Source of the DNA: an uncultured Gammaproteobacteria bacterium
GTDB lineage: Bacteria; Patescibacteriota; Patescibacteriia; SBBC01; CAIJZX01
Direction of reading: 5' to 3'
Length of the DNA: 64,000 nt
Assembly: GCA_964397195.1 (NCBI GenBank)
Contig: CAYNGY010000001.1
Location: 6,586-70,585 of the forward strand
Position numbers and translations under genes: made by a program. Below are positions 2,275-64,000 of this stretch, in pieces (the stretch's first letter is position 1; each line of letters begins with the position of its first letter). The notes beneath the pieces were generated by a model, which ran no database searches, was not told the origin of the DNA, and was given only the letters and a program-made list of their open reading frames with translations.

Positions 2275-4941
2275 CTACCGATTCCCGTGCTGTTGGATAA
2301 TTTTTTCCGCCTCATCCATCTTCACCGACAGCAGCTGTGAGACACCATCATCACCCATCGTCACGCCGTACAAAATAGCTGCTTTTTCCATCGTCGCCCG
2401 GTTGTGAGAAATTGTGACGAACTGCGTCTTGTGGGCGAGTTGATCGAGAATAGCCGCGAAGCGCTGACTGTTTGCCTCGTCGAGGGCCGCATCAACTTCG
2501 TCGAGCACCACGAACGGCGACGGATTATTCGAGATAATCGCACAGAGCAGGGCGATCGAGGTGAGGGCGCGCTCACCGCCTGAAAGCATCGCAATAGACT
2601 GCAGTTTTTTGCCCGGTGGGGTGGCCTTAATGTCGATTCCGGTCACCACTTTTTCCTCATTGGCTTTCGGTTTTACCTCGGCTGTCGGTTGGGCCTCACC
2701 CTGATCATTTACCATCGCCGCCTCAGCCTCGGTTAGGTCATCATCGGCGCGAAGCACTTCTTTCATTAGTACCAATTCGGCTCGCCCACCGCGAAACAGG
2801 GCGCGGAAATAAGTATTAAACTCGTCATTAATCTTTCGGAAGGACGTATCAAAGCGTTTCGAGATGATTTGATCGAGGTCGGCAATCGCTGATTCAAGGG
2901 CGGCAATACCGCCTTTTAAGTCCTCCGCTTGTTTTGAAAGAAACTCCCAGCGCTCGTTTGTTTCCTGGAATTCGGCGGTTACCGTTTCATCAATTCCACC
3001 AATGAGTTGGAGAGAATGTTGAAGGCGACCGATTTCCTCAGCCAGCAGGGTAACGTCGCCGTCGAGTTGTTGTATGACCACTTGGGCGATTTCAGGTAGG
3101 CCATGCTCGCCCATCGCCTGGAGTATTTCGCGGTGGAGGTCGTCCCGGCGTTGGTCGAGGCGGGCGATGGTGACGGACAATTCCGAGACGCGATTCTGGG
3201 CGGTGTTAAATTCGTGTTGGACGGCGCGGAATTCTTTTTGCAGAGCGAAGAGACGTTCCTTCTTCGTCGTTTCAAGTGTATTAAAGTTGTTTATCGATTC
3301 GCGCGCATCTTTCAGTCGAAGATCAACCGCCCCAATCGCCGTCTCGATCTTTTTTGCTTCTTGGGCTGTGGCCGCGTAGGCTTCGTCGGGGTGCGTCTGG
3401 GCCAGTTCTTGAACACTCAGGTCGCGCTCAATACGCTCGAGTTCTTGCGCCAGTTTTTGGCGGTCAAGCGCCTTTTGCGCCGCCTGCGACTCGCGAAGGC
3501 GGAGATCACTTCGGAGCTCCGTGACCCGCTGGAAAATATCCTGTCGCTGCTGAGCGGCGGCGAGGAGGTGTTGTTGTAATTCGGTTAGCGCGTGTGGATG
3601 CGAATCCGGACTAGCCCCGGCGACGCGTTCAAGGAACGCCGTGAGTTCGCCGCGGAGGGCTTGGGCGCGGGTTCGCAATTGGGGAACGTCAACGGTCTCG
3701 ACATGCAGCGCCTCAACGAAGTCATGGTATTTTACTGACCATGCCGACATGGCGCGGTGGACATCCGGGAGCGTAATTTGCTGGGCAAGCTCCCGCTGGA
3801 GTTTCGTGCCCTGCGTTTCTAAATCGCGGAATGTCCGCTCAGCGGCGGCGAGTTCCGCCTCGGCGGCAAGAAGTTTCTCTCGTTGACGCGCCTCGAGGTT
3901 TGTCGCCTCAGTCACATCATCATCAATTCCCCCAATCAGGCGCTTGAGTTCGGCCACTCGTTTCCCGAGATAGGCTGCCTCGCCGGCCCCGCTCTGTTGG
4001 GCAGTCAACTCGAGACGTCCTTTAATCACCGCCTGTTGTTCGAGGAGACGATTCTTTTCGTCGAGAATCGTATTGTAGTCGCGCTGAAGATCGGTGAAGG
4101 TCTCGGTCGATGTTCGCTCTTTTTCGATTGATTCGAGTTCGGCCTGAATGGTGCTAAGTTCTTGTCCAACATGGTCACGCGCTGATTCGGCCGATTGATG
4201 GTGGTCACGGGCCGTGGCTAGTTCCCCGTCAATTTCACGTGACCGAAGTCCGAAATATGTTCGCTGTGTCGCCCGCAACTCCCGTTCAACCTCCTCGCGT
4301 CGCTCAAGGCGTCGGACCTGTCGCGTCAGTGATCGGAGTCGCGGTTCAATTTCTTGCATGATTGCCTCACCTTGGGTGAGATTTTCTTTGCTCTGGGCCA
4401 GCTTGTGGAGCGCCTGCTCTTTTTTTATTTGGAATTGCCGGACACCAGCGGCCTCGTCGAACAAGTGCTTTCGTTCTTGTGGGCTCGAGAGGAGGAATGA
4501 ATCGATCATCCCCTGACCAATCACCGAATATGTACGTTGGCCAAAGTTCGCTTGCGCTAGCATGAGCTGAATGTCCTGGAGTCGTGCGGGCTGATGATTA
4601 ATCAGGTATTCCCCTTCCCCGTCACGGTAGACGCGACGGGTAATGACGAGCTCGCTGTAGTCGATCGGCGCCCCGCGATCCTCATTATTGAGCGTCATCG
4701 ACACTTCGGCGACGCTCAGTCGCTGCTTTCGGTCAGACCCGGCAAATATCACGTCGTCACTTTTCTTGCCACGCAAAAGTTTAAGCGACTGTTCGCCGAG
4801 CACCCAGCGGATAGAGTCTGCCACGTTCGACTTGCCGGAGCCGTTCGGGCCGACAATGGCCGTAATGCCGCGCTGAAACTCCAGCGAAGATTTTTGAGCG
4901 AATGATTTAAATCCTTGGATTTCGAGTTTGGCGAGATACAT
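2275..4941 (-). CDS. smc: SMC-like chromosome segregation ATPase (about 888 aa, short arms)
   Basis: N-terminal Walker A GPNGSGKSN. Long coiled-coil. C-terminal signature LSGGERALTS and Walker B VLDEVDAALD. Start MYLAKLEIQGFKSF at 4941. Confidence 0.85.
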   Translation of the reverse strand: MYLAKLEIQGFKSFAQKSSLEFQRGITAIVGPNGSGKSNVADSIRWVLGEQSLKLLRGKKSDDVIFAGSDRKQRLSVAEVSMTLNNEDRGAPIDYSELVITRRVYRDGEGEYLINHQPARLQDIQLMLAQANFGQRTYSVIGQGMIDSFLLSSPQERKHLFDEAAGVRQFQIKKEQALHKLAQSKENLTQGEAIMQEIEPRLRSLTRQVRRLERREEVERELRATQRTYFGLRSREIDGELATARDHHQSAESARDHVGQELSTIQAELESIEKERTSTETFTDLQRDYNTILDEKNRLLEQQAVIKGRLELTAQQSGAGEAAYLGKRVAELKRLIGGIDDDVTEATNLEARQREKLLAAEAELAAAERTFRDLETQGTKLQRELAQQITLPDVHRAMSAWSVKYHDFVEALHVETVDVPQLRTRAQALRGELTAFLERVAGASPDSHPHALTELQQHLLAAAQQRQDIFQRVTELRSDLRLRESQAAQKALDRQKLAQELERIERDLSVQELAQTHPDEAYAATAQEAKKIETAIGAVDLRLKDARESINNFNTLETTKKERLFALQKEFRAVQHEFNTAQNRVSELSVTIARLDQRRDDLHREILQAMGEHGLPEIAQVVIQQLDGDVTLLAEEIGRLQHSLQLIGGIDETVTAEFQETNERWEFLSKQAEDLKGGIAALESAIADLDQIISKRFDTSFRKINDEFNTYFRALFRGGRAELVLMKEVLRADDDLTEAEAAMVNDQGEAQPTAEVKPKANEEKVVTGIDIKATPPGKKLQSIAMLSGGERALTSIALLCAIISNNPSPFVVLDEVDAALDEANSQRFAAILDQLAHKTQFVTISHNRATMEKAAILYGVTMGDDGVSQLLSVKMDEAEKIIQQHGNR

Positions 4942-5009
4942 CGATGTTTCGACAGCAGCCGCGACAAACACGCGGTGACCTCTATAGTACCACAAGAACA
5001 GGGCGCTTT

Positions 5010-8954: not shown

Positions 8955-9221
8955 TTAATCTTTCTTGTCCTTTTTCTCGGTTTTTTCCTTCGGCGCCTCG
9001 TCCGCTGACTTCTGCTTCCGTTTCGCGGCGCGTCGTTCGACACGACCTTGAATTTTTAGGACCAAGCGACCTTTGTAGTATCCGCAATGTGGACAGGCCA
9101 CGTGCGGTCGGACGCGACGATGACAGTGGCTACAAGCGATCGTTGATGTTTTAGCGAGGGCAAAGTGTGCGGCGCGTTCGCGCTTGCTTTGCTTTGTTCG
9201 GCGTTTCGCGGGAAGACCCAT
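8955..9221 (-). CDS. rpmF: 50S ribosomal protein L32 with a Lys/Glu-rich C-terminal extension
   Basis: MGLPAKRRTKQSKRERAAH...CSHCHRRVRPHVACPHCGYYKGRLV is the L32 Zn-ribbon. A 30-aa KEKTEKKDKKD tail follows. Confidence 0.7.
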   Translation of the reverse strand: MGLPAKRRTKQSKRERAAHFALAKTSTIACSHCHRRVRPHVACPHCGYYKGRLVLKIQGRVERRAAKRKQKSADEAPKEKTEKKDKKD

Positions 9222-25726: not shown

Positions 25727-26749
25727 CTAGCGCCGCTGGACGTGGGTGCGGTAGCTCGCATAGAGCTCGAGGAGCTTCTTTTCCGTAGCATTCTGGCCGA
25801 CATGACCGACTCCATGGATATAGGGCAGTGTTCCGAGGAACACGCCCATCTTGCCATGGACGACTTCCGGGCGAATGTTCGGGTCGCGCTGTGCGGCATG
25901 CAGCAGTCCGCGCAGTTTCCGAACGTACCAACGTGGTAGGAAGACGCGGCCGTGACGATCGAGGGAGATGCCGTTGATCGTAATCGGTCCGCGGTAGAGG
26001 TCGACGACCTGCGCCTTGCGGTGACTGATCTGGAACCCCGCCGTGGCGATGGTCGCGCGTATCTCGCGCCGGACTTGGTCCGTAATTCGTGCATGTCTCG
26101 AGGAGAACGTCAGGTCGTCGAGGTAGCGCGTGTACGTCAGCTCATGCTGCGTGCAGATCGTCGCCAGCTGGCGATCGAGGACCGTGGCCGCGTAGATGTT
26201 GAACAGGTCGGGCGACGACGGACTTCCCTGGACGAGCCCACGTGATCCGCGCCGGATCGGTGTGGGCGGCGCGATGGCCAGCGTTTGCTGTCGCGCGTGG
26301 CCGATCCGATAGCTCGAACCGGACACGAAGCAGTACTTCTTGAGAAACGCGTGCACGGTCTCGACGGTATCCGGTTTCGGATCGAGGCCACACAGCACGA
26401 AGGCCAAGAGTTCGTCGTCGACGTGTCCATAGGCATCGACGATGTCGAGTAGGTAGAAGTGGCGGTTGGCAAGGTAGATACCGCGCCCCTTCTGTCGCGC
26501 CGGGTACCGATGCCGCCGGACGTTATTGAGCGGCGAGCCATTCGGCCGCGCGCCAACCGCATGCGGCATCTCGACCGGCAGGGCGCGCAGTGCGCGGACA
26601 AACCGCTGGTGCAGTAGCAACATGGCCGGGTTCGGCGCCCCAATCTGGCGGTACTTCGTCGTTCCCGTCAGCGGGTTCGTGTCACGGTACCGGAAGCGCT
26701 GAAACAACGGCACTCCCGGCAGGTCGGCTAGGAATTGGTCAAAGTGCAT
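25727..26749 (-). CDS. Reverse transcriptase, retron-type (about 340 aa). The ORF track extends to 26938; the start with GGAGGA SD is at 26749.
   Basis: RT motif 1 YPARQKGRG, motif 2 YLLDIVDAYGHV, motif 4 LVQGSPSSPDLFNIYA, motif 5 RYLDDLTFSS (YxDD followed by LTFS as in retron RTs), thumb region ITINGISL. SD GGAGGA 6 nt before ATG 26749. Confidence 0.8.
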   Translation of the reverse strand: MHFDQFLADLPGVPLFQRFRYRDTNPLTGTTKYRQIGAPNPAMLLLHQRFVRALRALPVEMPHAVGARPNGSPLNNVRRHRYPARQKGRGIYLANRHFYLLDIVDAYGHVDDELLAFVLCGLDPKPDTVETVHAFLKKYCFVSGSSYRIGHARQQTLAIAPPTPIRRGSRGLVQGSPSSPDLFNIYAATVLDRQLATICTQHELTYTRYLDDLTFSSRHARITDQVRREIRATIATAGFQISHRKAQVVDLYRGPITINGISLDRHGRVFLPRWYVRKLRGLLHAAQRDPNIRPEVVHGKMGVFLGTLPYIHGVGHVGQNATEKKLLELYASYRTHVQRR

Positions 26750-26831
26750 GACGGTTCCTCCGATGTCAGGAGTTACGGGGTCGGGGAAACAGCGCCCCCA
26801 CCCTAGCAGAATGGAGAGAAAGCGCAAATCA

Positions 26832-26890
26832 TAAAAAAGACCCCAGATGTGATCCAGGGTTGCCCGTGATGGGCGGTACGAAGGTGCGGC
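26832..26890 (-). repeat. Module-terminal hairpin element, copy 1 (degenerate)
   Basis: aaaaagaccccagatgtgatccagggttgcccgtgatgggcgg is about 90% identical to copy 2 over 45 nt, but its stem is weakened. Confidence 0.5.
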
Positions 26891-27282
26891 AATCTCTGTC
26901 AGCGCTAGCCTGGGGGCGATCGCCTGAACAGACGCCAATGTTTCCGCTGAGGTTCGCGACGACCACCACGAGTCGTGTGGATACGACCGCAGGGAGGCGA
27001 ACCGGATCTAAACAGACCCAGATCAAGGAGTCGCCAGTTTGTAACGGGCAACGTCCTGCCCCGCAACGTGTGTCACGGGGGTTGTGTTCCATGGGTGGTG
27101 CTACATGCCTCATCGGACGTCTTGCCGATGTGCAGGATCACTCCCCCAGGCCTCTCCTTGTGGGCGCACCTCAAGAGGTAAAACACTCGATCAGAGCGTG
27201 ACAAGGAGCGCGAGGCCCAGCGACGGACCACGCCAGCAATGTATAGCCTTGCTCGGCCCTCGTCAATTCGGCGACCTGTGGG

Positions 27283-27345
27283 AAAAAAAGACCCCGGATG
27301 TGATCCAGGGGTGCCCGTGATGGGCGGGTGCAAATGTGGTGGCCG
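27283..27345 (-). repeat. Module-terminal hairpin element, copy 2
   Basis: aaaaaagaccccggatgtgatccaggggtgcccgtgatgggcgggtgcaaatgtgg. On the minus strand the hairpin is followed by tcttttttt. Confidence 0.5.
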
Positions 27346-43946: not shown

Positions 43947-44933
43947 ATGGTGCCCTGGAATCCATCGCCGGTCTATGAAACATTCTGGCGTTTTACCCGA
44001 GCGCGTCAGGACATCTTTCAGCGCCGCTGGCGCGGCCAAGCGGGGCCCTGGACCGACGACCACATTTTACGTGACTACAAATTCACCAACGTTTTCCGCG
44101 CCAGCGACCGCATCAGTCAGTATCTCATCCGTCATGTTCAATACGCCGGGCCGCAGGACGCGCGAAATCTTTTTTATCGGACGATACTTTTTAAACTCTT
44201 CAATCGTCGCGATACGTGGGAGTTTCTTGAGTCGAAGTTCGGCCAACTGACGGTCGACACATTCGATCGCGATACGTTCGTGGCCGCCGTAACCGCCCGT
44301 CAACGGCTGACGCCTATTTATTCCTCCGCCTATATCATGCCGCCGGTCAGTCATGACGGCGCCGCGAAACATGACGGCCATCTGCGTTTACTGCAACAGA
44401 TGCTCGCTGACGATCTCCCGGAACATATCGCCGCCAGCGGCACTTTGTCCGAGGTGTATGAACTTCTCCGATCATATCCCGGCATCGGGAAGTTTCTGGC
44501 GTATCAATATGCGATCGATCTTAACTATTCAGTGCTCACGAATCATTCGGAAATGGAATTCGTCGTTCCGGGGCCAGGCGCGCTCCGCGGAATTCAAAAA
44601 TGCTTTGGGTCTACCGCCCGGCGTGAAGCGACACACATCATTCACTGGATTGCCGCACACCAAGGTGAGGAGCAACGCTCACGCGGGAACGAACCGGTGG
44701 CACTCTTTGGTCGGCCTCTCCAATTGATTGACGTGCAAGGTCTTTTTTGTGAAGTTGATAAGTATGCCCGCGTCGCGCATCCGGATGTTACCACCACGAC
44801 ATTGCCAACAAGAATCAAACAACACTATCGGTCAGCCGGGCCACTAGCCGCGCTTTGGTTTCCGCCAAAATGGGGTCTGAACGAGCGGGTCAATGCCGAA
44901 AAGGTGTCTTTTTTGAAAAGTGTGTTAGTATAG
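43947..44933 (+). CDS. Putative nucleic-acid base-modification enzyme, tentatively alpha-glutamyl/putrescinyl thymine pyrophosphorylase-like
   Basis: N-terminal block RRWRGQAGPWTDDHILRDYKFTNVFRASDRISQYL resembles, from memory, the conserved start of aGPT-Pplase-like proteins. No direct comparison was possible. Confidence 0.4.
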   Translation: MVPWNPSPVYETFWRFTRARQDIFQRRWRGQAGPWTDDHILRDYKFTNVFRASDRISQYLIRHVQYAGPQDARNLFYRTILFKLFNRRDTWEFLESKFGQLTVDTFDRDTFVAAVTARQRLTPIYSSAYIMPPVSHDGAAKHDGHLRLLQQMLADDLPEHIAASGTLSEVYELLRSYPGIGKFLAYQYAIDLNYSVLTNHSEMEFVVPGPGALRGIQKCFGSTARREATHIIHWIAAHQGEEQRSRGNEPVALFGRPLQLIDVQGLFCEVDKYARVAHPDVTTTTLPTRIKQHYRSAGPLAALWFPPKWGLNERVNAEKVSFLKSVLV

Positions 44934-45926: not shown

Positions 45927-46253
45927 ATGACCGACATTCAGCCAAAGGACATCAAGCCGGGCCAGACCATCCGGGTTCACCAGAAGATTAAAGAAGGTGA
46001 GAAAGAACGCGTGCAGGTTTTTGAAGGCATCGTCATTGCCCGTCGTCATGGCGTCGGTGCTTCCGGGACATTCTGTGTCCGAAAGTATTCCGATGGCATT
46101 GGTGTCGAGCGCATTTTCCCGATTCAATCGCCGATTATCACCAAAGTCGAGCTCGTTCGAACCGCCAAGGTCCGCCGGGCCAAGCTGTACCACTTACGTG
46201 AAACGGGCGCTCGTCCGCTCCGCGAAAAGATCGCGAAGAAGCCGAAAGCCTAA
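45927..46253 (+). CDS. rplS: 50S ribosomal protein L19
   Basis: [45 protein letters not shown] matches L19. Terminator at 46264-46291. Confidence 0.9.
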
Positions 46254-48032: not shown

Positions 48033-48108
48033 GGGCTGTTAGCTCATTTGGTAGAGCGCCGCGTTTGCAACGCGGAGGTGACCGGTTCGAGCCCGGTACA
48101 GTCCACCA
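48033..48108 (+). tRNA. tRNA-Ala, anticodon UGC
   Basis: Acceptor gggctgt/acagtcc including a G3:U70 pair (the Ala identity element), anticodon stem ccgcg/cgcgg with loop ttTGCaa, T-arm accgg-ttcgagc-ccggt, CCA. Confidence 0.85.
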
Positions 48109-48265
48109 AAAGTATATAATTCATCGCCTTGATCGAGGTCTCGACGCTTCGGTATAGAAACATCGAGATCATTTGGGTCGAGGCAACAAGAAACAGCAAC
48201 TGCTTGCTGTTTCGCGGGCCGAGACGGGCACGACGATGTTCCGCAAGGAACCGTCGCGCCCCGGA

Positions 48266-48366
48266 AGAGCGCCGCGTTTGCAACGCGGAGGTGACTGGGT
48301 CGAGCGAAGCGAGACGGGTCGCCAGTGGCGACCCCGGCCCATAGGGCGAGCCCGGTAGGTCCACCA
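48266..48366 (+). pseudogene. Partial duplicate of tRNA-Ala(UGC) (D-arm 3' side to the 3' end) interrupted by a 52-nt hairpin insertion in the T-arm
   Basis: 30 nt are identical to 48054-48083 (agagcgccgcgtttgcaacgcggaggtgac). Then an insertion containing gggtcgcc-agt-ggcgaccc. Then agcccggtaggtccacca (1 mismatch). The 5' half of the tRNA is absent. Confidence 0.55.
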
Positions 48367-58156: not shown

Positions 58157-58885
58157 TTATTCGAACGACCGATCCCGGCCGACAATCACGTGGAGCTTCT
58201 GGTGTAAGACCGTAATAGTGACCGGTGGGTTGACCATCACCTGTCCATCAAGGACGATCGGCGTCTCGCCTTCGACGCGTTCAATCTTTGCCGTGGTGAT
58301 CGGGAAGACGCTCGGCGCGTCATGACCGCGATGCAGCCAACTGCCGCCCGCCGGTCGGATGGTCAGTTCGAGTTTCCCGTCATCTGGACGTGAGCCCGGA
58401 CCAAGATTGACGATGGTCACTTCAGATTCCGGGTCGGTGGACTCGACGGTGTAAGCGTGTTCACAATTGACCCGCAAACCAACGGGAAGTTTTGCGTGGA
58501 GGAGAAAATGCATCCCTCCGGCCGACCCCAAATCAATCCGACGCATAATTCGCCGTGACAACATATCACAGGCCGCGACGCCATCTGGGATGCCCAAGGC
58601 GTGAGCGACGAGTTGCTGGGGGCCGACCGGAACTATGCCAAGTGCGGCATCGGCCTCGAGGACGAGCGGGAGAATTTTGGCAATCGTTTGGTCATTCCCA
58701 ATCGCGACAATCGTGTCGGCGCCGCGCTTCAGCATCGTCCGCACGGATTCTTGCAAATTTTTTAGGATGGTAATCTTTTCCGTCCGACCCTGAATGCCGA
58801 GTGTCGCTAAACGTGTCTCGATTCGGATCGACTCCGTTCGATACTTTTGATCTTGAACGAAGCTGTCAAAGACGTACGCGTACAT
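58157..58885 (-). CDS. Diacylglycerol kinase catalytic-domain lipid kinase (YegS/BmrU-like)
   Basis: DAGK_cat-like N-terminal Rossmann (TIVAIGNDQTI) and C-terminal beta domain. Assignment is moderate. Confidence 0.5.
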   Translation of the reverse strand: MYAYVFDSFVQDQKYRTESIRIETRLATLGIQGRTEKITILKNLQESVRTMLKRGADTIVAIGNDQTIAKILPLVLEADAALGIVPVGPQQLVAHALGIPDGVAACDMLSRRIMRRIDLGSAGGMHFLLHAKLPVGLRVNCEHAYTVESTDPESEVTIVNLGPGSRPDDGKLELTIRPAGGSWLHRGHDAPSVFPITTAKIERVEGETPIVLDGQVMVNPPVTITVLHQKLHVIVGRDRSFE

Positions 58886-59286
58886 TAGCCGCGTCCATTC
58901 TTCTCCTTCCCGTTGGCTTCGGGTTGGGCCTCGTGACCGCTCATCGTAACTTTGCCGTGCAAGACGGCGCCGTGGGCGACGGCGATGGCTTGCGTTTCAA
59001 CGTTGCCAAAAATCTTTGCGGTTGGGAGGAGTTCAATCTTGCCGCCGCATTTTACCTGACCCCGGATTTCGCCGCCGACGATAATATTCGCCGCTTCAAC
59101 ATCCGCCTTGATAATCGCGCGCGTGCCAATCCGCAGATTCTTATTGGTCTTGAGTGTCCCCGCGACGTGTCCATCAACGACAATATCACCAGCGCCGACA
59201 AAGGTACCCTCAACTTTTACGCTCGAGCCGATGATGGTCTCGATATCTTTCGTTGACGTTTCATTTTCTCGTTGGAACATAGCCAT
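58885..59286 (-). CDS. Bactofilin
   Basis: Beta-helical repeat pattern (GTFVGAGDIVVDGHVAGTL...IIKADVEAANIIVGGEIRGQV) with a Pro/Lys-rich tail. Confidence 0.7.
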   Translation of the reverse strand: MAMFQRENETSTKDIETIIGSSVKVEGTFVGAGDIVVDGHVAGTLKTNKNLRIGTRAIIKADVEAANIIVGGEIRGQVKCGGKIELLPTAKIFGNVETQAIAVAHGAVLHGKVTMSGHEAQPEANGKEKNGRG

Positions 59287-63522: not shown

Positions 63523-63597
63523 GCCCCCGTAGCTCAACGGATAGAGCGGTCCCGTCCTAAGGGAATGATAGAGGTTCAATTCCTTTCGGGGGCACCA
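63523..63597 (+). tRNA. tRNA-Arg, anticodon CCU
   Basis: Acceptor gcccccg/cgggggc, 4-bp anticodon stem tccc/ggga with loop gtCCTaa (an unusual G32), T-arm agagg-ttcaatt-ccttt, CCA. Confidence 0.65.
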
Positions 63598-63598
63598 A

Positions 63599-63674
63599 GG
63601 GCCCTTAGCTCATTTGGTAGAGCGCTTCCATGGCATGGAAGAGGTAAGGAGTTCGATTCTCCTAGGGTCCACCA
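63599..63674 (+). tRNA. tRNA-Ala, anticodon GGC
   Basis: Acceptor gggccct/agggtcc with G3:U70, anticodon stem cttcc/ggaag with loop atGGCat, T-arm aggag-ttcgatt-ctcct, CCA. 1 nt after tRNA-Arg. Confidence 0.8.
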
Positions 63675-63690
63675 GACCTAGATTAGCAAG

Positions 63691-63811
63691 ATGTTCCTCG
63701 AGGAACATCTGAATAAAGGAAATGTTCCGCGAGGAACAATTGAAAATACACGAAGAACATATGTTCCTCGGGGAACATATGTAAATTGTCGAATGTTCCG
63801 CGAGGAACATT
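63691..63811. repeat. Array of four palindromes TGTTCC-N4-GGAACA, resembling parS sites
   Basis: ATGTTCCTCGAGGAACAT (63691-63708), AATGTTCCGCGAGGAACAATT (63721-63741), ATATGTTCCTCGGGGAACATAT (63759-63780), AATGTTCCGCGAGGAACATT (63792-63811). Confidence 0.55.
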
Positions 63812-63816
63812 GGCTT

Positions 63817-63892
63817 GGGCCTGTAGCTCATTTGGTAGAGCGCTGCATTCGCATTGCAGAGGTAAGGGGTTCGATTCCCCTCAGGTCCACCA
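63817..63892 (+). tRNA. tRNA-Ala, anticodon CGC
   Basis: Acceptor gggcctg/caggtcc with G3:U70, anticodon stem ctgca/tgcag with loop ttCGCat, T-arm agggg-ttcgatt-cccct, CCA. Confidence 0.8.
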
Positions 63893-64000
63893 ATTGGAAG
63901 TGTCGTAAAGTGTTAGATATCGAGAGTTACTGATTTTCGGGGTTTTTGGTATTTGAAAAGAGGGGTCATTGCTGACCCCCGGGGGTTTTCGGCGGGGCGA

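What the first reader, a model, noticed from the sequence alone, without database searches (positions are those of the whole stretch)
63691..63811. Four tandem parS-like palindromes (TGTTCC-N4-GGAACA) between tRNA-Ala(GGC) and tRNA-Ala(CGC)
Four near-identical 18-22-bp palindromes lie within 120 bp. The core TGTTCCTCGAGGAACA differs from the Firmicute parS consensus TGTTNCACGTGNAACA at one position per half-site. Clusters of several centromere sites are typical of plasmid parC loci or of strong ParB nucleation sites, not of tRNA spacers. As RNA in a polycistronic tRNA precursor they would alternatively form four perfect stem-loops, possibly RNase III processing sites (rnc is in this window). 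Either reading is unusual.
Basis: partly seen in the sequence, partly recalled or inferred. Interest (0 to 1): 0.55.

Follow-up and report, generated by a model that had tools for sequence, protein, structure and literature searches.

The report
Variant parS centromere cluster in tRNA operon
The four palindromes are most likely chromosome-partition (parS) sites for the ParB protein, in a variant spelling, sitting inside a tRNA operon of a Kerfeldbacteria-like ultra-small bacterium, where close relatives carry textbook parS sites at the same spot.

Summary
Four copies of TGTTCC-N4-GGAACA lie at 63692-63809 between tRNA-Ala(GGC) and tRNA-Ala(CGC), against 0.11 expected by chance.

They are best read as DNA sites for ParB (parS), not as RNA processing signals. 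Three results support this.
- Relatives from the same Kerfeldbacteria-like clade carry canonical parS (TGTTCCACGTGGAACA) in the same tRNA-Ala spacer (L138, L140) or just upstream of the same tRNA operon (L134, L139). L132 and L135 carry the variant.
- In an unbiased metagenome scan for tandem variant sites, 6 of 9 loci lie directly at parA/parB genes, and 2 are this tRNA spacer.
- The arms are invariant in every copy, with no compensatory changes, while the spacers between copies diverge.

The variant changes only positions 7 and 10. This is the base that separates parS from the Noc site and is read by ParB residue 201 (Jalal 2020). Half-sites here carry T, G or C, never A. An IF-2 tree suggests the centre switched at least twice in this clade.

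Gaps remain. No parA or parB lies in the window or in any related locus I could fetch, and distance to the replication origin is unknown. The window does encode SMC.

Verdict: a new variant of a known kind, in an unusual placement. Moderate interest.

The parts
63692..63707 (.). Variant parS site 1, TGTTCC-TCGA-GGAACA (18-bp palindrome 63691-63708)
   Evidence: The same centre (TCGA) occupies the first site of the orthologous spacer in L135.
63723..63738 (.). Variant parS site 2, TGTTCC-GCGA-GGAACA
   Evidence: Identical, centre included, to the first site of relative L132/L124 (alignment A3).
63754..63759 (.). AGAACA, a possible relic half-site abutting site 3. It forms the palindrome GAACATATGTTC with the left arm of site 3.
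   Evidence: (inverted repeat I8). Relatives also keep relic half-sites: TGTTCCAC in L135 and GTGGAACA in L140.
63758..63781 (.). Variant parS site 3, core TGTTCC-TCGG-GGAACA (63762-63777), with palindromic flanks CATA...TATG
   Evidence: Identical to L132 site 2. L140 carries GATATGTTCC-ACGT-GGAACATATC with the same ATAT flanks and a canonical centre in the same spacer.
63794..63809 (.). Variant parS site 4, TGTTCC-GCGA-GGAACA (18-bp palindrome 63793-63810), 7 nt upstream of tRNA-Ala(CGC)
   Evidence: Identical to L132 site 3 and aligned with the last site of L135 and of L138.
63523..63597 (+). tRNA-Arg(CCT), first gene of the tRNA operon that hosts the sites
   Evidence: The same gene order occurs in L132, L135, L138 and L140.
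63599..63674 (+). tRNA-Ala(GGC), left border of the spacer
63817..63892 (+). tRNA-Ala(CGC), right border of the spacer
48237..48252 (.). Degenerate fifth copy, TGTTCC-GCAA-GGAACC (one arm mismatch). It lies between tRNA-Ala(TGC) and a partial duplicate of that tRNA. It may be a weak or decayed site, or chance.
2275..4995 (-). SMC (906 aa), the condensin that ParB-parS complexes load in other bacteria. This is context, not part of the site.
   Evidence: SMC_N, E = 1.1e-68.

Best explanation
The four palindromes are a cluster of chromosomal centromere-like parS sites, that is, DNA sites where ParB dimers load. By analogy with studied ParB systems, ParB would bind each 16-bp site through its helix-turn-helix domain. 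It would then close as a CTP-dependent clamp and slide onto flanking DNA, building a partition complex that ParA and/or SMC act on.

This lineage uses a variant spelling, TGTTCC-[T/G]CG[A/G]-GGAACA. Positions 7 and 10 are no longer A and T. The ancestral location of the cluster is the tRNA-Arg/tRNA-Ala/tRNA-Ala operon of a Kerfeldbacteria-like clade of Patescibacteria.

What is shown: the sites exist and are non-random; canonical parS occupies the orthologous position in relatives; the same variant sits at parAB genes elsewhere; the arms are under sequence-level constraint.

What is inferred: this organism encodes a ParB; that ParB binds the variant, probably through a change at the residue equivalent to Caulobacter G201; the cluster lies near the origin and serves segregation and SMC loading.
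For: 1. Orthologous canonical sites. L138 and L140 have the same synteny (surface protein, small membrane ORF, tRNA-Arg, tRNA-Ala(GGC), spacer, tRNA-Ala(CGC), CsoR-like gene, thioredoxin). Their spacer holds two perfect TGTTCCACGTGGAACA sites. L134 and L139 have one perfect canonical site just upstream of tRNA-Arg. L132/L124 and L135/L123 carry 3 and 2 variant sites in the spacer.

2. Link to parAB. A metagenome scan for two adjacent TGTTCCKCGRGGAACA sites returned 9 loci.
- L122: parA, three sites, parB.
- L126: two sites, parA.
- L128: yidC, two sites, parA, parB.
- L130: yidC, two sites, parA, parB.
- L129: sites just after the 3' end of a gene whose C-terminus looks like ParB by eye; no search confirmed it.
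- L127: sites inside the 3' end of parB.
- L123 and L124: this tRNA spacer.

3. Sequence constraint rather than structure constraint. All 9 variant and 6 canonical copies in the clade have identical arms, TGTTCC/GGAACA. Window sites 2-4 are identical to L132 sites 1-3 over 18-22 nt, centres included. The spacers between them are only about half identical, and IF-2 is 74% identical.

4. Tandem parS clusters with 30-60 bp spacing are common. At least 45 of 120 loci from the genome scan have a parB within 8 kb.

5. The changed base is the one that ParB residue 201 reads (PMC7383237). In other phyla, ParBs next to centre-variant clusters carry S or A instead of G at that residue, whereas 34-35 of 38 G-type ParBs sit next to ACGT sites (Fisher p about 0.001-0.003).

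6. SMC is encoded in the window.
Against: No parA or parB is present in the 64-kb window, nor in any of the Kerfeldbacteria-like loci I could fetch. ParB in this organism is therefore inferred, not seen. No dnaA or other origin marker is in the window, so origin proximity is untested.

The sites fail the strict central CACGTG of the parS consensus. Binding of any ParB to TCGA, GCGA or TCGG centres has not been measured.

The residue-201 correlation comes mostly from one Acidobacteriota clade and has exceptions (L056, L101, L127). It is not available for this lineage.

The sites are transcribed within a tRNA precursor and would fold, so an added RNA-level role cannot be excluded.
Confidence: 0.8

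Rival explanations
1. The palindromes act as RNA. As stem-loops or inter-copy duplexes in the polycistronic tRNA-Arg/Ala/Ala precursor, they would guide endonucleolytic processing (RNase III, RNase Y) or protect the spacer from exonucleases.
For: The sites lie between co-oriented tRNA genes that are probably co-transcribed. The 142-nt spacer folds at -59.4 kcal/mol with z = -8.8. The minimum-energy fold pairs copy 1 with copy 4 and copy 2 with copy 3 into duplexes of about 17 bp. Both rnc and RNase Y are encoded in the window. Two of the four centres (three of five counting the degenerate fifth copy, GCAA) spell GNRA tetraloops (GCGA).
Against: Strong folding is automatic for any repeated palindrome. 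Local hairpins are only 7-9 bp, below the roughly two helical turns that bacterial RNase III prefers (general knowledge). There is not one compensatory substitution in 15 copies from 7 genomes; the arms are fixed at sequence level. Copy number varies from 1 to 4, and in L134 and L139 the site sits upstream of the first tRNA. The identical 16-mer occurs at parA promoters and inside parB in unrelated lineages. Relatives carry the universal parS sequence at the same place.
Confidence: 0.07
2. The sites are operators for a DNA-binding protein other than the segregation ParB. Candidates are a ParB paralogue (Noc-like, or an orphan ParB) or a regulator of the tRNA operon that evolved from, or mimics, parS recognition.
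For: The changed position is the one that separates parS from the Noc site, and orphan ParB-like proteins are widespread (PMC7383237; PMC12704722). In L134 and L139 the site abuts the start of the tRNA operon, where a bound protein could affect transcription.
Against: Position 2 is G as in parS, not A as in the Noc site. In six variant loci from other lineages the neighbour is a parAB operon (five) or an apparent parB 3' end (L129), not a paralogue. Genomes in this clade carry either canonical or variant sites at this locus, never both, which suggests one cognate protein. No candidate regulator gene lies next to the sites in the window. The CsoR-like gene downstream in relatives has its own, different operator.
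Confidence: 0.08
3. The palindromes are selfish or neutral repeats (REP/BIME-like or MITE-like) that happened to accumulate in a tolerant tRNA spacer.
For: They are short palindromes in tandem within extragenic DNA. In a Parcubacteria contig (L043), canonical parS triplets sit in repeated modules of about 110 nt. tRNA-Ala gene fragments around these loci point to local rearrangement.
Against: There is one cluster plus one degenerate copy in 64 kb, and none elsewhere in 10-23 kb of each relative. The sites are conserved at one orthologous locus across genomes with 52-74% IF-2 identity. The repeat family's sequence is that of parS, and no RAYT or transposase gene is nearby.
Confidence: 0.03

Closest known systems
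Chromosomal parS sites of the ParABS system (consensus TGTTNCACGTGNAACA; Bacillus subtilis Spo0J, Caulobacter ParB, Myxococcus, Pseudomonas)
   Same: It is a 16-bp inverted repeat with identical outer arms (TGTTCC/GGAACA) and the frequent A/T flanks (AATGTTCC...GGAACATT). It occurs as a tight multi-copy cluster. It is orthologous to perfect canonical sites in relatives, and the same variant is found at parAB operons elsewhere. SMC is present.
   Different: Positions 7 and 10 are T/G/C and A/G/C instead of A and T. Across 18 half-sites in three genomes the counts are T 11, G 5, C 2, A 0. The cluster sits inside a tRNA operon, which was seen in 0 of 120 other clusters. The cognate ParB has not been seen.
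Noc-binding site (NBS, TATTTCCCGGGAAATA) of Firmicutes Noc, a ParB paralogue
   Same: It departs from parS at the same inner position (Jalal's position 6, A to C in NBS). This shows that the base is a natural specificity switch, read by residue 201.
   Different: NBS also changes position 2 (G to A), which is unchanged here. Noc is confined to Firmicutes and functions in nucleoid occlusion. NBS sites are dispersed, not clustered at one locus.
Centre-variant parS clusters next to parAB in Acidobacteriota
   Same: They have the same arms with a changed central tetranucleotide (TGCA, TTCA, ACGG, GCGC, TCGA) and occur in tandem clusters. The TCGA form is identical to window site 1.
   Different: They lie beside or between parA and parB, not in a tRNA operon. 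Their ParB is visible and carries S or A at the G201-equivalent. The phylum is different.
Processing hairpins and REP elements in bacterial tRNA and rRNA operon spacers
   Same: They are short palindromes in a transcribed spacer between tRNA genes, and they form stable hairpins.
   Different: The sequence, not the pairing, is conserved. It is identical to a protein-binding site that is found in non-tRNA contexts, and it does not form a genome-wide repeat family.

Membership tests
Chromosomal parS (ParB loading site) | 16-bp inverted repeat with the outer arms of the consensus (TGTT[N]C ... G[N]AACA) | tested here: met
   All four sites have TGTTCC/GGAACA, so 12 of 12 arm positions match.
Chromosomal parS (ParB loading site) | Central CACGTG core of the consensus | tested here: not met
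   The centres are CTCGAG, CGCGAG, CTCGGG and CGCGAG, giving 2 mismatches per site at positions 7 and 10. This is why I call it a variant and not a canonical parS.
Chromosomal parS (ParB loading site) | Homology: the same locus holds bona fide parS in related genomes | tested here: met
   Perfect TGTTCCACGTGGAACA occurs in the same tRNA-Ala spacer in L138 and L140, and upstream of the same tRNA operon in L134 and L139.
Chromosomal parS (ParB loading site) | The sequence type is genomically linked to parA/parB genes | tested here: met
   Six of 9 metagenome loci with tandem variant sites lie directly at parA/parB. In the window itself no parAB gene is nearby.
Chromosomal parS (ParB loading site) | A ParB protein is encoded in the same genome | tested here: inconclusive
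   tblastn and Pfam find no ParB or ParA in the 64-kb window or in the related loci held. The rest of the 477-kb contig and of the genome could not be fetched.
Chromosomal parS (ParB loading site) | Location in the origin-proximal part of the chromosome | tested here: inconclusive
   There is no dnaA or dnaN in the window and no clear GC-skew turning point. The position on the chromosome is unknown.
Chromosomal parS (ParB loading site) | Specific ParB binding, with CTP-dependent loading and spreading | not testable with these tools
   This needs EMSA or BLI, ChIP-seq, or clamp-loading assays.
Noc-binding site (NBS) | A at position 2 and C at position 7 of each half-site (TATTTCCC) | tested here: not met
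   Position 2 is G in all eight half-sites. Position 7 is C in only one of eight. The definition is from PMC7383237.
RNase III processing stem in a tRNA/rRNA precursor | A conserved double-stranded RNA helix of about two turns, maintained by compensatory changes | tested here: not met
   Local stems are 7-9 bp. Longer helices arise only by pairing between copies, and copy number varies from 1 to 4 among relatives. No compensatory substitution occurs in 15 copies.
REP/BIME-type repetitive extragenic palindromes | Many copies dispersed in extragenic regions of one genome | tested here: not met
   There is one cluster plus one degenerate copy in 64 kb, and no extra copies in 10-23 kb of each relative. 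The whole genome was not available.
Intrinsic terminator | A G+C-rich hairpin followed by a U-tract on the transcribed strand | tested here: not met
   No terminator-like hit lies on the + strand in the spacer. The only hits are on the minus strand and reuse the palindromes.

The most novel reading that the evidence does not exclude
Within one small clade of Kerfeldbacteria-like Patescibacteria, the chromosomal centromere has been re-spelled at least twice independently, from ACGT to T/G-CG-A/G at the base that residue 201 of ParB reads. Each genome is uniformly canonical or uniformly variant. This would be a natural, repeated ParB-parS specificity switch, the same axis as the ParB-to-Noc divergence, and it recurs in Acidobacteriota and other phyla. 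In this clade the centromere is anchored inside a highly transcribed tRNA operon, which may couple ParB/SMC loading to a strong transcription unit.
Probability: 0.35. Interest if true: 0.6.

Novelty: new variant of a known kind. Interest (0 to 1): 0.45.

Why it matters
parS is usually treated as nearly invariant across bacteria (review PMC7022226). That assumption is built into genome scans for centromeres, origin prediction and ParB-based DNA-labelling tools. This case shows a natural variant that strict consensus searches would miss. It changes exactly the base known to switch ParB-family specificity, and it is present in several phyla, including the poorly understood Patescibacteria.

The clade offers matched pairs of close genomes with canonical and variant sites at the same locus: L138 versus L135, and L140 versus the window. 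That makes a clean comparative test of ParB-parS co-evolution possible. It also gives a first handle on chromosome segregation in CPR bacteria, and an example of a centromere embedded in a tRNA operon.

Tried and rejected
- My genome-contig scan used a loose tandem pattern (GTTCCN4GGAAC twice). It was still informative (canonical clusters, centre variants), but it did not return the window's own genome.
- Fetching DNA beyond the right end of the window failed. The only retrievable contig for the adjacent gene (Logan SRR12487045_65027, L001) breaks inside tRNA-Ala(GGC).
- The search for ParA and ParB in the window and in all Kerfeldbacteria-like loci found nothing. A weak tblastn hit at 46000-46110 is a spurious frame overlapping the L19 gene.
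- I ran no further search on ParB. Candidates are chosen by shared words with the query, and I had no CPR ParB to use as a seed.
- Literature searches for parS/ParB in Patescibacteria or CPR returned nothing relevant.
- Rejected: intrinsic terminators.
- Rejected: CRISPR-like array, because the units are 18 nt with 13-23 nt spacers and the repeats are palindromic.
- Rejected: LexA/Cheo box, which is GAAC-N4-GTTC and so has the opposite arm order.
- Rejected: CsoR operator. In the relative it is a different sequence, ATACCCCCGGGGGGTAT.
- Rejected: Noc site.
- Side check: I tested whether the reverse transcriptase at 25.7-26.9 kb belongs to a diversity-generating retroelement. Only a 44-nt repeat was found, with no clean template/variable repeat pair.

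Full report
**Observation.** The region reads: tRNA-Ala(GGC), then gacctagattagcaag-ATGTTCCTCGAGGAACAT-ctgaataaaggaa-ATGTTCCGCGAGGAACA-attgaaaatacacgaagaacat-ATGTTCCTCGGGGAACAT-atgtaaattgtcga-ATGTTCCGCGAGGAACAT-tggctt, then tRNA-Ala(CGC). The repeat finder reports four copies spaced 31, 39 and 32 nt apart. TGTTCCNNNNGGAACA occurs four times perfectly, plus once with one mismatch at 48237. Shuffles give 0.11 expected, and 0 of 100 shuffles reach 5. ARAGORN and Rfam agree on tRNA-Arg(CCT) 63523-63597, tRNA-Ala(GGC) 63599-63674 and tRNA-Ala(CGC) 63817-63892. Each site is 2 mismatches from TGTTNCACGTGNAACA, and no closer match to that consensus exists in the window.

**Which organism.** The window is 51-62% G+C. 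It encodes a short IF-2, RNase Y, RNase III, NusB, GyrA, FtsH and a 906-aa SMC, and it has scattered single tRNA genes. Homologues of the adjacent 1169-aa fn3/LysM surface protein are named Candidatus Kerfeldbacteria or Patescibacteria group by NCBI. An identical protein sits on a 477-kb NCBI contig that I could not fetch. No ParA or ParB is encoded in the window.

**Tandem clusters of this kind are what parS looks like.** It returned almost only clusters of TGTTCCACGTGGAACA, from many phyla, often with AAT...ATT flanks. At least 45 of those loci encode ParB within the 8 kb held. Some lineages have the same arms with another centre: TGCA, TTCA or TGAA (L023, L007), GCGC (L055), ACGG (L019) and CGCG (L029, L033).

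**The exact variant is tied to parAB.** A metagenome scan for two adjacent TGTTCCKCGRGGAACA sites cannot match the canonical ACGT centre. It gave nine loci. By ORF inspection, tblastn and phmmer, they are:
- L122: parA, three TCGA sites, parB.
- L126: two sites about 100 nt upstream of parA.
- L128: yidC, two sites, parA, parB.
- L130: yidC, two sites, parA, parB.
- L129: two sites just beyond the 3' end of a gene whose C-terminus looks like ParB by eye; no search confirmed it.
- L127: two sites inside the 3' end of parB.
- L123 and L124: the same tRNA-Ala spacer as in the window.
- L125: sites downstream of thrC, unexplained.

Six of nine at parAB is far beyond chance for a 16-mer.

**The orthologous locus in relatives.** Using homologues of the neighbouring surface protein, I fetched the locus from eight further genomes. 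All eight share the bactofilin-DAGK-IF-2 block beside the surface protein. Where the tRNA side is held, it carries a small membrane ORF, tRNA-Arg(CCT), tRNA-Ala(GGC), tRNA-Ala(CGC), then a CsoR-like gene, thioredoxin and so on. The results are:

| Locus | Sites at the tRNA operon |
|---|---|
| window | four variant sites: TCGA, GCGA, TCGG, GCGA |
| L132 (= L124) | three variant sites: GCGA, TCGG, GCGA |
| L135 (= L123) | TCGA, a relic canonical half-site TGTTCCAC, then GCGA |
| L138 | two canonical sites (ACGT) in the same spacer |
| L140 | two canonical sites plus a relic half-site GTGGAACA in the same spacer |
| L134, L139 | one canonical site upstream of tRNA-Arg (5 nt upstream in L139, about 130 nt in L134) |
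| L136, L137 | only tRNA-Arg, next to a serine recombinase; no site |
| L131 | no tRNAs at this position; one hybrid site, TGTTCC-ACGA-GGAACG, before infB |

The window's palindromes therefore occupy the position of textbook parS sites. Even the ATAT...ATAT flanks of window site 3 recur around a canonical centre in L140.

**Constraint is on sequence, not on pairing.** Window sites 2-4 and L132 sites 1-3 are identical over 18-22 nt, centres included. The intervening spacers are only about half identical (alignment A3), and IF-2 is 74% identical. Across 15 copies in seven genomes the arms never change and there is no compensatory pair. This is what a protein-binding site predicts. A structural RNA would tolerate compensatory change.

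**The changed base.** Counting both strands, half-site position 7 is T 11, G 5, C 2 and A 0 in the window, L132 and L135. Every site has at least one T half, so the preferred form is TGTTCCTCGAGGAACA, the spelling that dominates at parAB in L122, L126, L128 and L129. Jalal et al. (PMC7383237) showed that this base ("position 6", A in parS and C in the Noc site) is one of two specificity positions and is read by residue 201 (G in ParB, R in Noc).

I aligned 52 ParB-family ORFs from my loci (44 usable after dropping truncated ORFs, two Noc-type paralogues and one spurious frame) and found the following.
- G at that residue goes with ACGT-type centres in 34-35 of 38 loci.
- S or A at that residue goes with variant centres in 4-5 of 6 loci: L122 S with TCGA, L023 A with TGCA, L019 S with ACGG, L055 S with GCGC. 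L056 and L101 are exceptions.
- Fisher's exact p is 0.0006-0.003.
- Two Noc-type QKRR paralogues appear as expected.

The non-G ParBs are mostly one Acidobacteriota clade, so this amounts to few independent events. It gives a plausible mechanism, not proof, and the ParB of the Kerfeldbacteria lineage is missing.

**History in the clade.** A neighbour-joining tree of IF-2 (559 ungapped columns, 200 bootstraps) gives (L134, L139) as the outer pair, then {L140, (L138, L135), L136} and {L132, window}. L138+L135 has 100% support and the four-genome group 99%. With canonical sites in the outer pair, in L140 and in L138, the simplest reading is two switches to the variant, one on the window/L132 branch and one in L135. 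The relic canonical half-site in L135 fits this. Transfer of the locus, or a ParB that tolerates both spellings combined with local homogenisation, remain possible. Each genome is uniformly one type at this locus.

**Placement.** None of the 120 tandem clusters from other genomes lies within 500 nt of a tRNA gene. The tRNA-operon location is therefore specific to this clade and is conserved across genomes down to 52% IF-2 identity. Why it sits there is open. The spacer may simply be one of the few tolerant intergenic sites in a compact genome. Alternatively, a strong transcription unit may be a favourable neighbourhood for ParB/SMC loading. That second idea is my inference and is untested.

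**The RNA reading.** The spacer folds at -59.4 kcal/mol with z = -8.8. The best fold pairs copy 1 with copy 4 and copy 2 with copy 3. Any set of repeated palindromes does this. Local stems are 7-9 bp, copy number varies from 1 to 4, and in two relatives the site lies upstream of the operon. The same sequence also occurs where there is no tRNA. No + strand terminator is present. The hairpins will exist in the precursor as a by-product, but a dedicated processing role is not supported.

**The fifth copy.** TGTTCCGCAAGGAACC at 48237 has one arm mismatch. It lies 129 nt after tRNA-Ala(TGC) and just before a partial duplicate of that tRNA's 3' two-thirds, which carries an insertion of about 40 nt in the T arm. 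Similar tRNA-Ala fragments and insertion-bearing copies sit in the L135 and L138 spacers. This suggests a history of tRNA-Ala duplication and rearrangement that carried sites along. I do not count it as a functional site.

**Verdict.** This is a parS-type centromere cluster. It is a sequence variant at a known specificity position, embedded in a tRNA operon, in a lineage where segregation has not been studied. The main missing piece is the ParB itself.

Noticed in passing
window 48109-48360: Downstream of tRNA-Ala(TGC) (48033-48108) lies a partial second copy of that tRNA: the 3' side of the D stem through the acceptor end, about 48265-48360. It carries an insertion of about 40 nt in the T arm (gaagcgagacgggtcgccagtggcgaccccggcccatagggc). 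The motif CGAGACGGG occurs both before and inside it. This may be a remnant attachment-site duplication or a decaying tandem tRNA gene.
   Followed up: partly
L135 4983-5347 and L138 4919-5288: The tRNA-Ala spacers of relatives contain fragments of tRNA-Ala 3' halves, and a tRNA-Ala(CGC)-like gene interrupted by G+C-rich hairpin insertions in the D region. ARAGORN calls two overlapping tRNA-Ala(CGC) genes in L138. tRNA-Ala genes in this clade seem prone to duplication or insertion.
   Followed up: no
window 25727-26938 (-), with repeats at 26833-26876 and 27284-27327: A 403-aa reverse transcriptase (RVT_1, E = 4.6e-15) lies in the most G+C-rich part of the window (62%). A 44-nt direct repeat (95% identical) sits at its 5' end and again inside or near the 3' end of the upstream 339-aa ORF that has no family match. 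It is not a clean template/variable repeat pair, so the type (retron, group II intron, diversity-generating element) is undetermined.
   Followed up: partly
window 43947-44933 (+): A full-length match to the 5-hmdU DNA kinase helical domain (PF18723, E = 6.9e-99). This family is known from phage thymidine hypermodification pathways. Here it sits on a Patescibacteria chromosome, next to tRNA-Val and a pseudouridine synthase gene.
   Followed up: no
L043 7000-7830 (Parcubacteria MAG JBAYWF010000010.1): Eight perfect canonical parS sites (plus two TGTTTC/GAAACA-type sites) are arranged as three repeated modules (two triplets and a pair of perfect sites) inside a 364-aa open frame on the opposite strand. 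No parA or parB lies within the 8 kb held. It looks like a duplicated parS cassette.
   Followed up: no
L023, L007, L019, L055, L056, L122, L126 (Acidobacteriota): A clade of Acidobacteriota ParBs carries S or A in place of the conserved Gly equivalent to Caulobacter G201 (motif F[S/A][H/K]AK instead of GHAR). Their parS clusters have different centres in different genomes: TGCA, TTCA, ACGG, GCGC, TCGA and ACGT.
   Followed up: partly
L136 3456-4802: In the one relative that lacks both tRNA-Ala genes and the sites, a large serine recombinase (Resolvase, Recombinase, Zn_ribbon_recom) sits about 800 nt from tRNA-Arg(CCT). This suggests an integration or excision event at this locus.
   Followed up: no
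window 63962-63992: After tRNA-Ala(CGC) there is a hairpin, GGGGTCA-ttgc-TGACCCC, followed by CGGGGGTTTTCGG. It may be a weak terminator that closes the tRNA operon. The consensus scan did not call it because it has only four T.
   Followed up: partly
L124 about 9200-9215, equivalent region in L140: The palindrome ATACCCCCGGGGGGTAT (L140: ATACCCCTAGGGGGTAT) lies directly upstream of the CsoR-like repressor gene that follows the tRNA operon. It is probably that repressor's operator and is unrelated to the parS-type sites.
   Followed up: no
window 58885-59286 (-): A bactofilin gene lies 4 kb from the site cluster, and this is conserved in all relatives (bactofilin-DAGK-IF-2 block). In Myxococcus, bactofilins anchor ParA and ParB-like PadC (mentioned in PMC12704722). 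No link was tested here.
   Followed up: no
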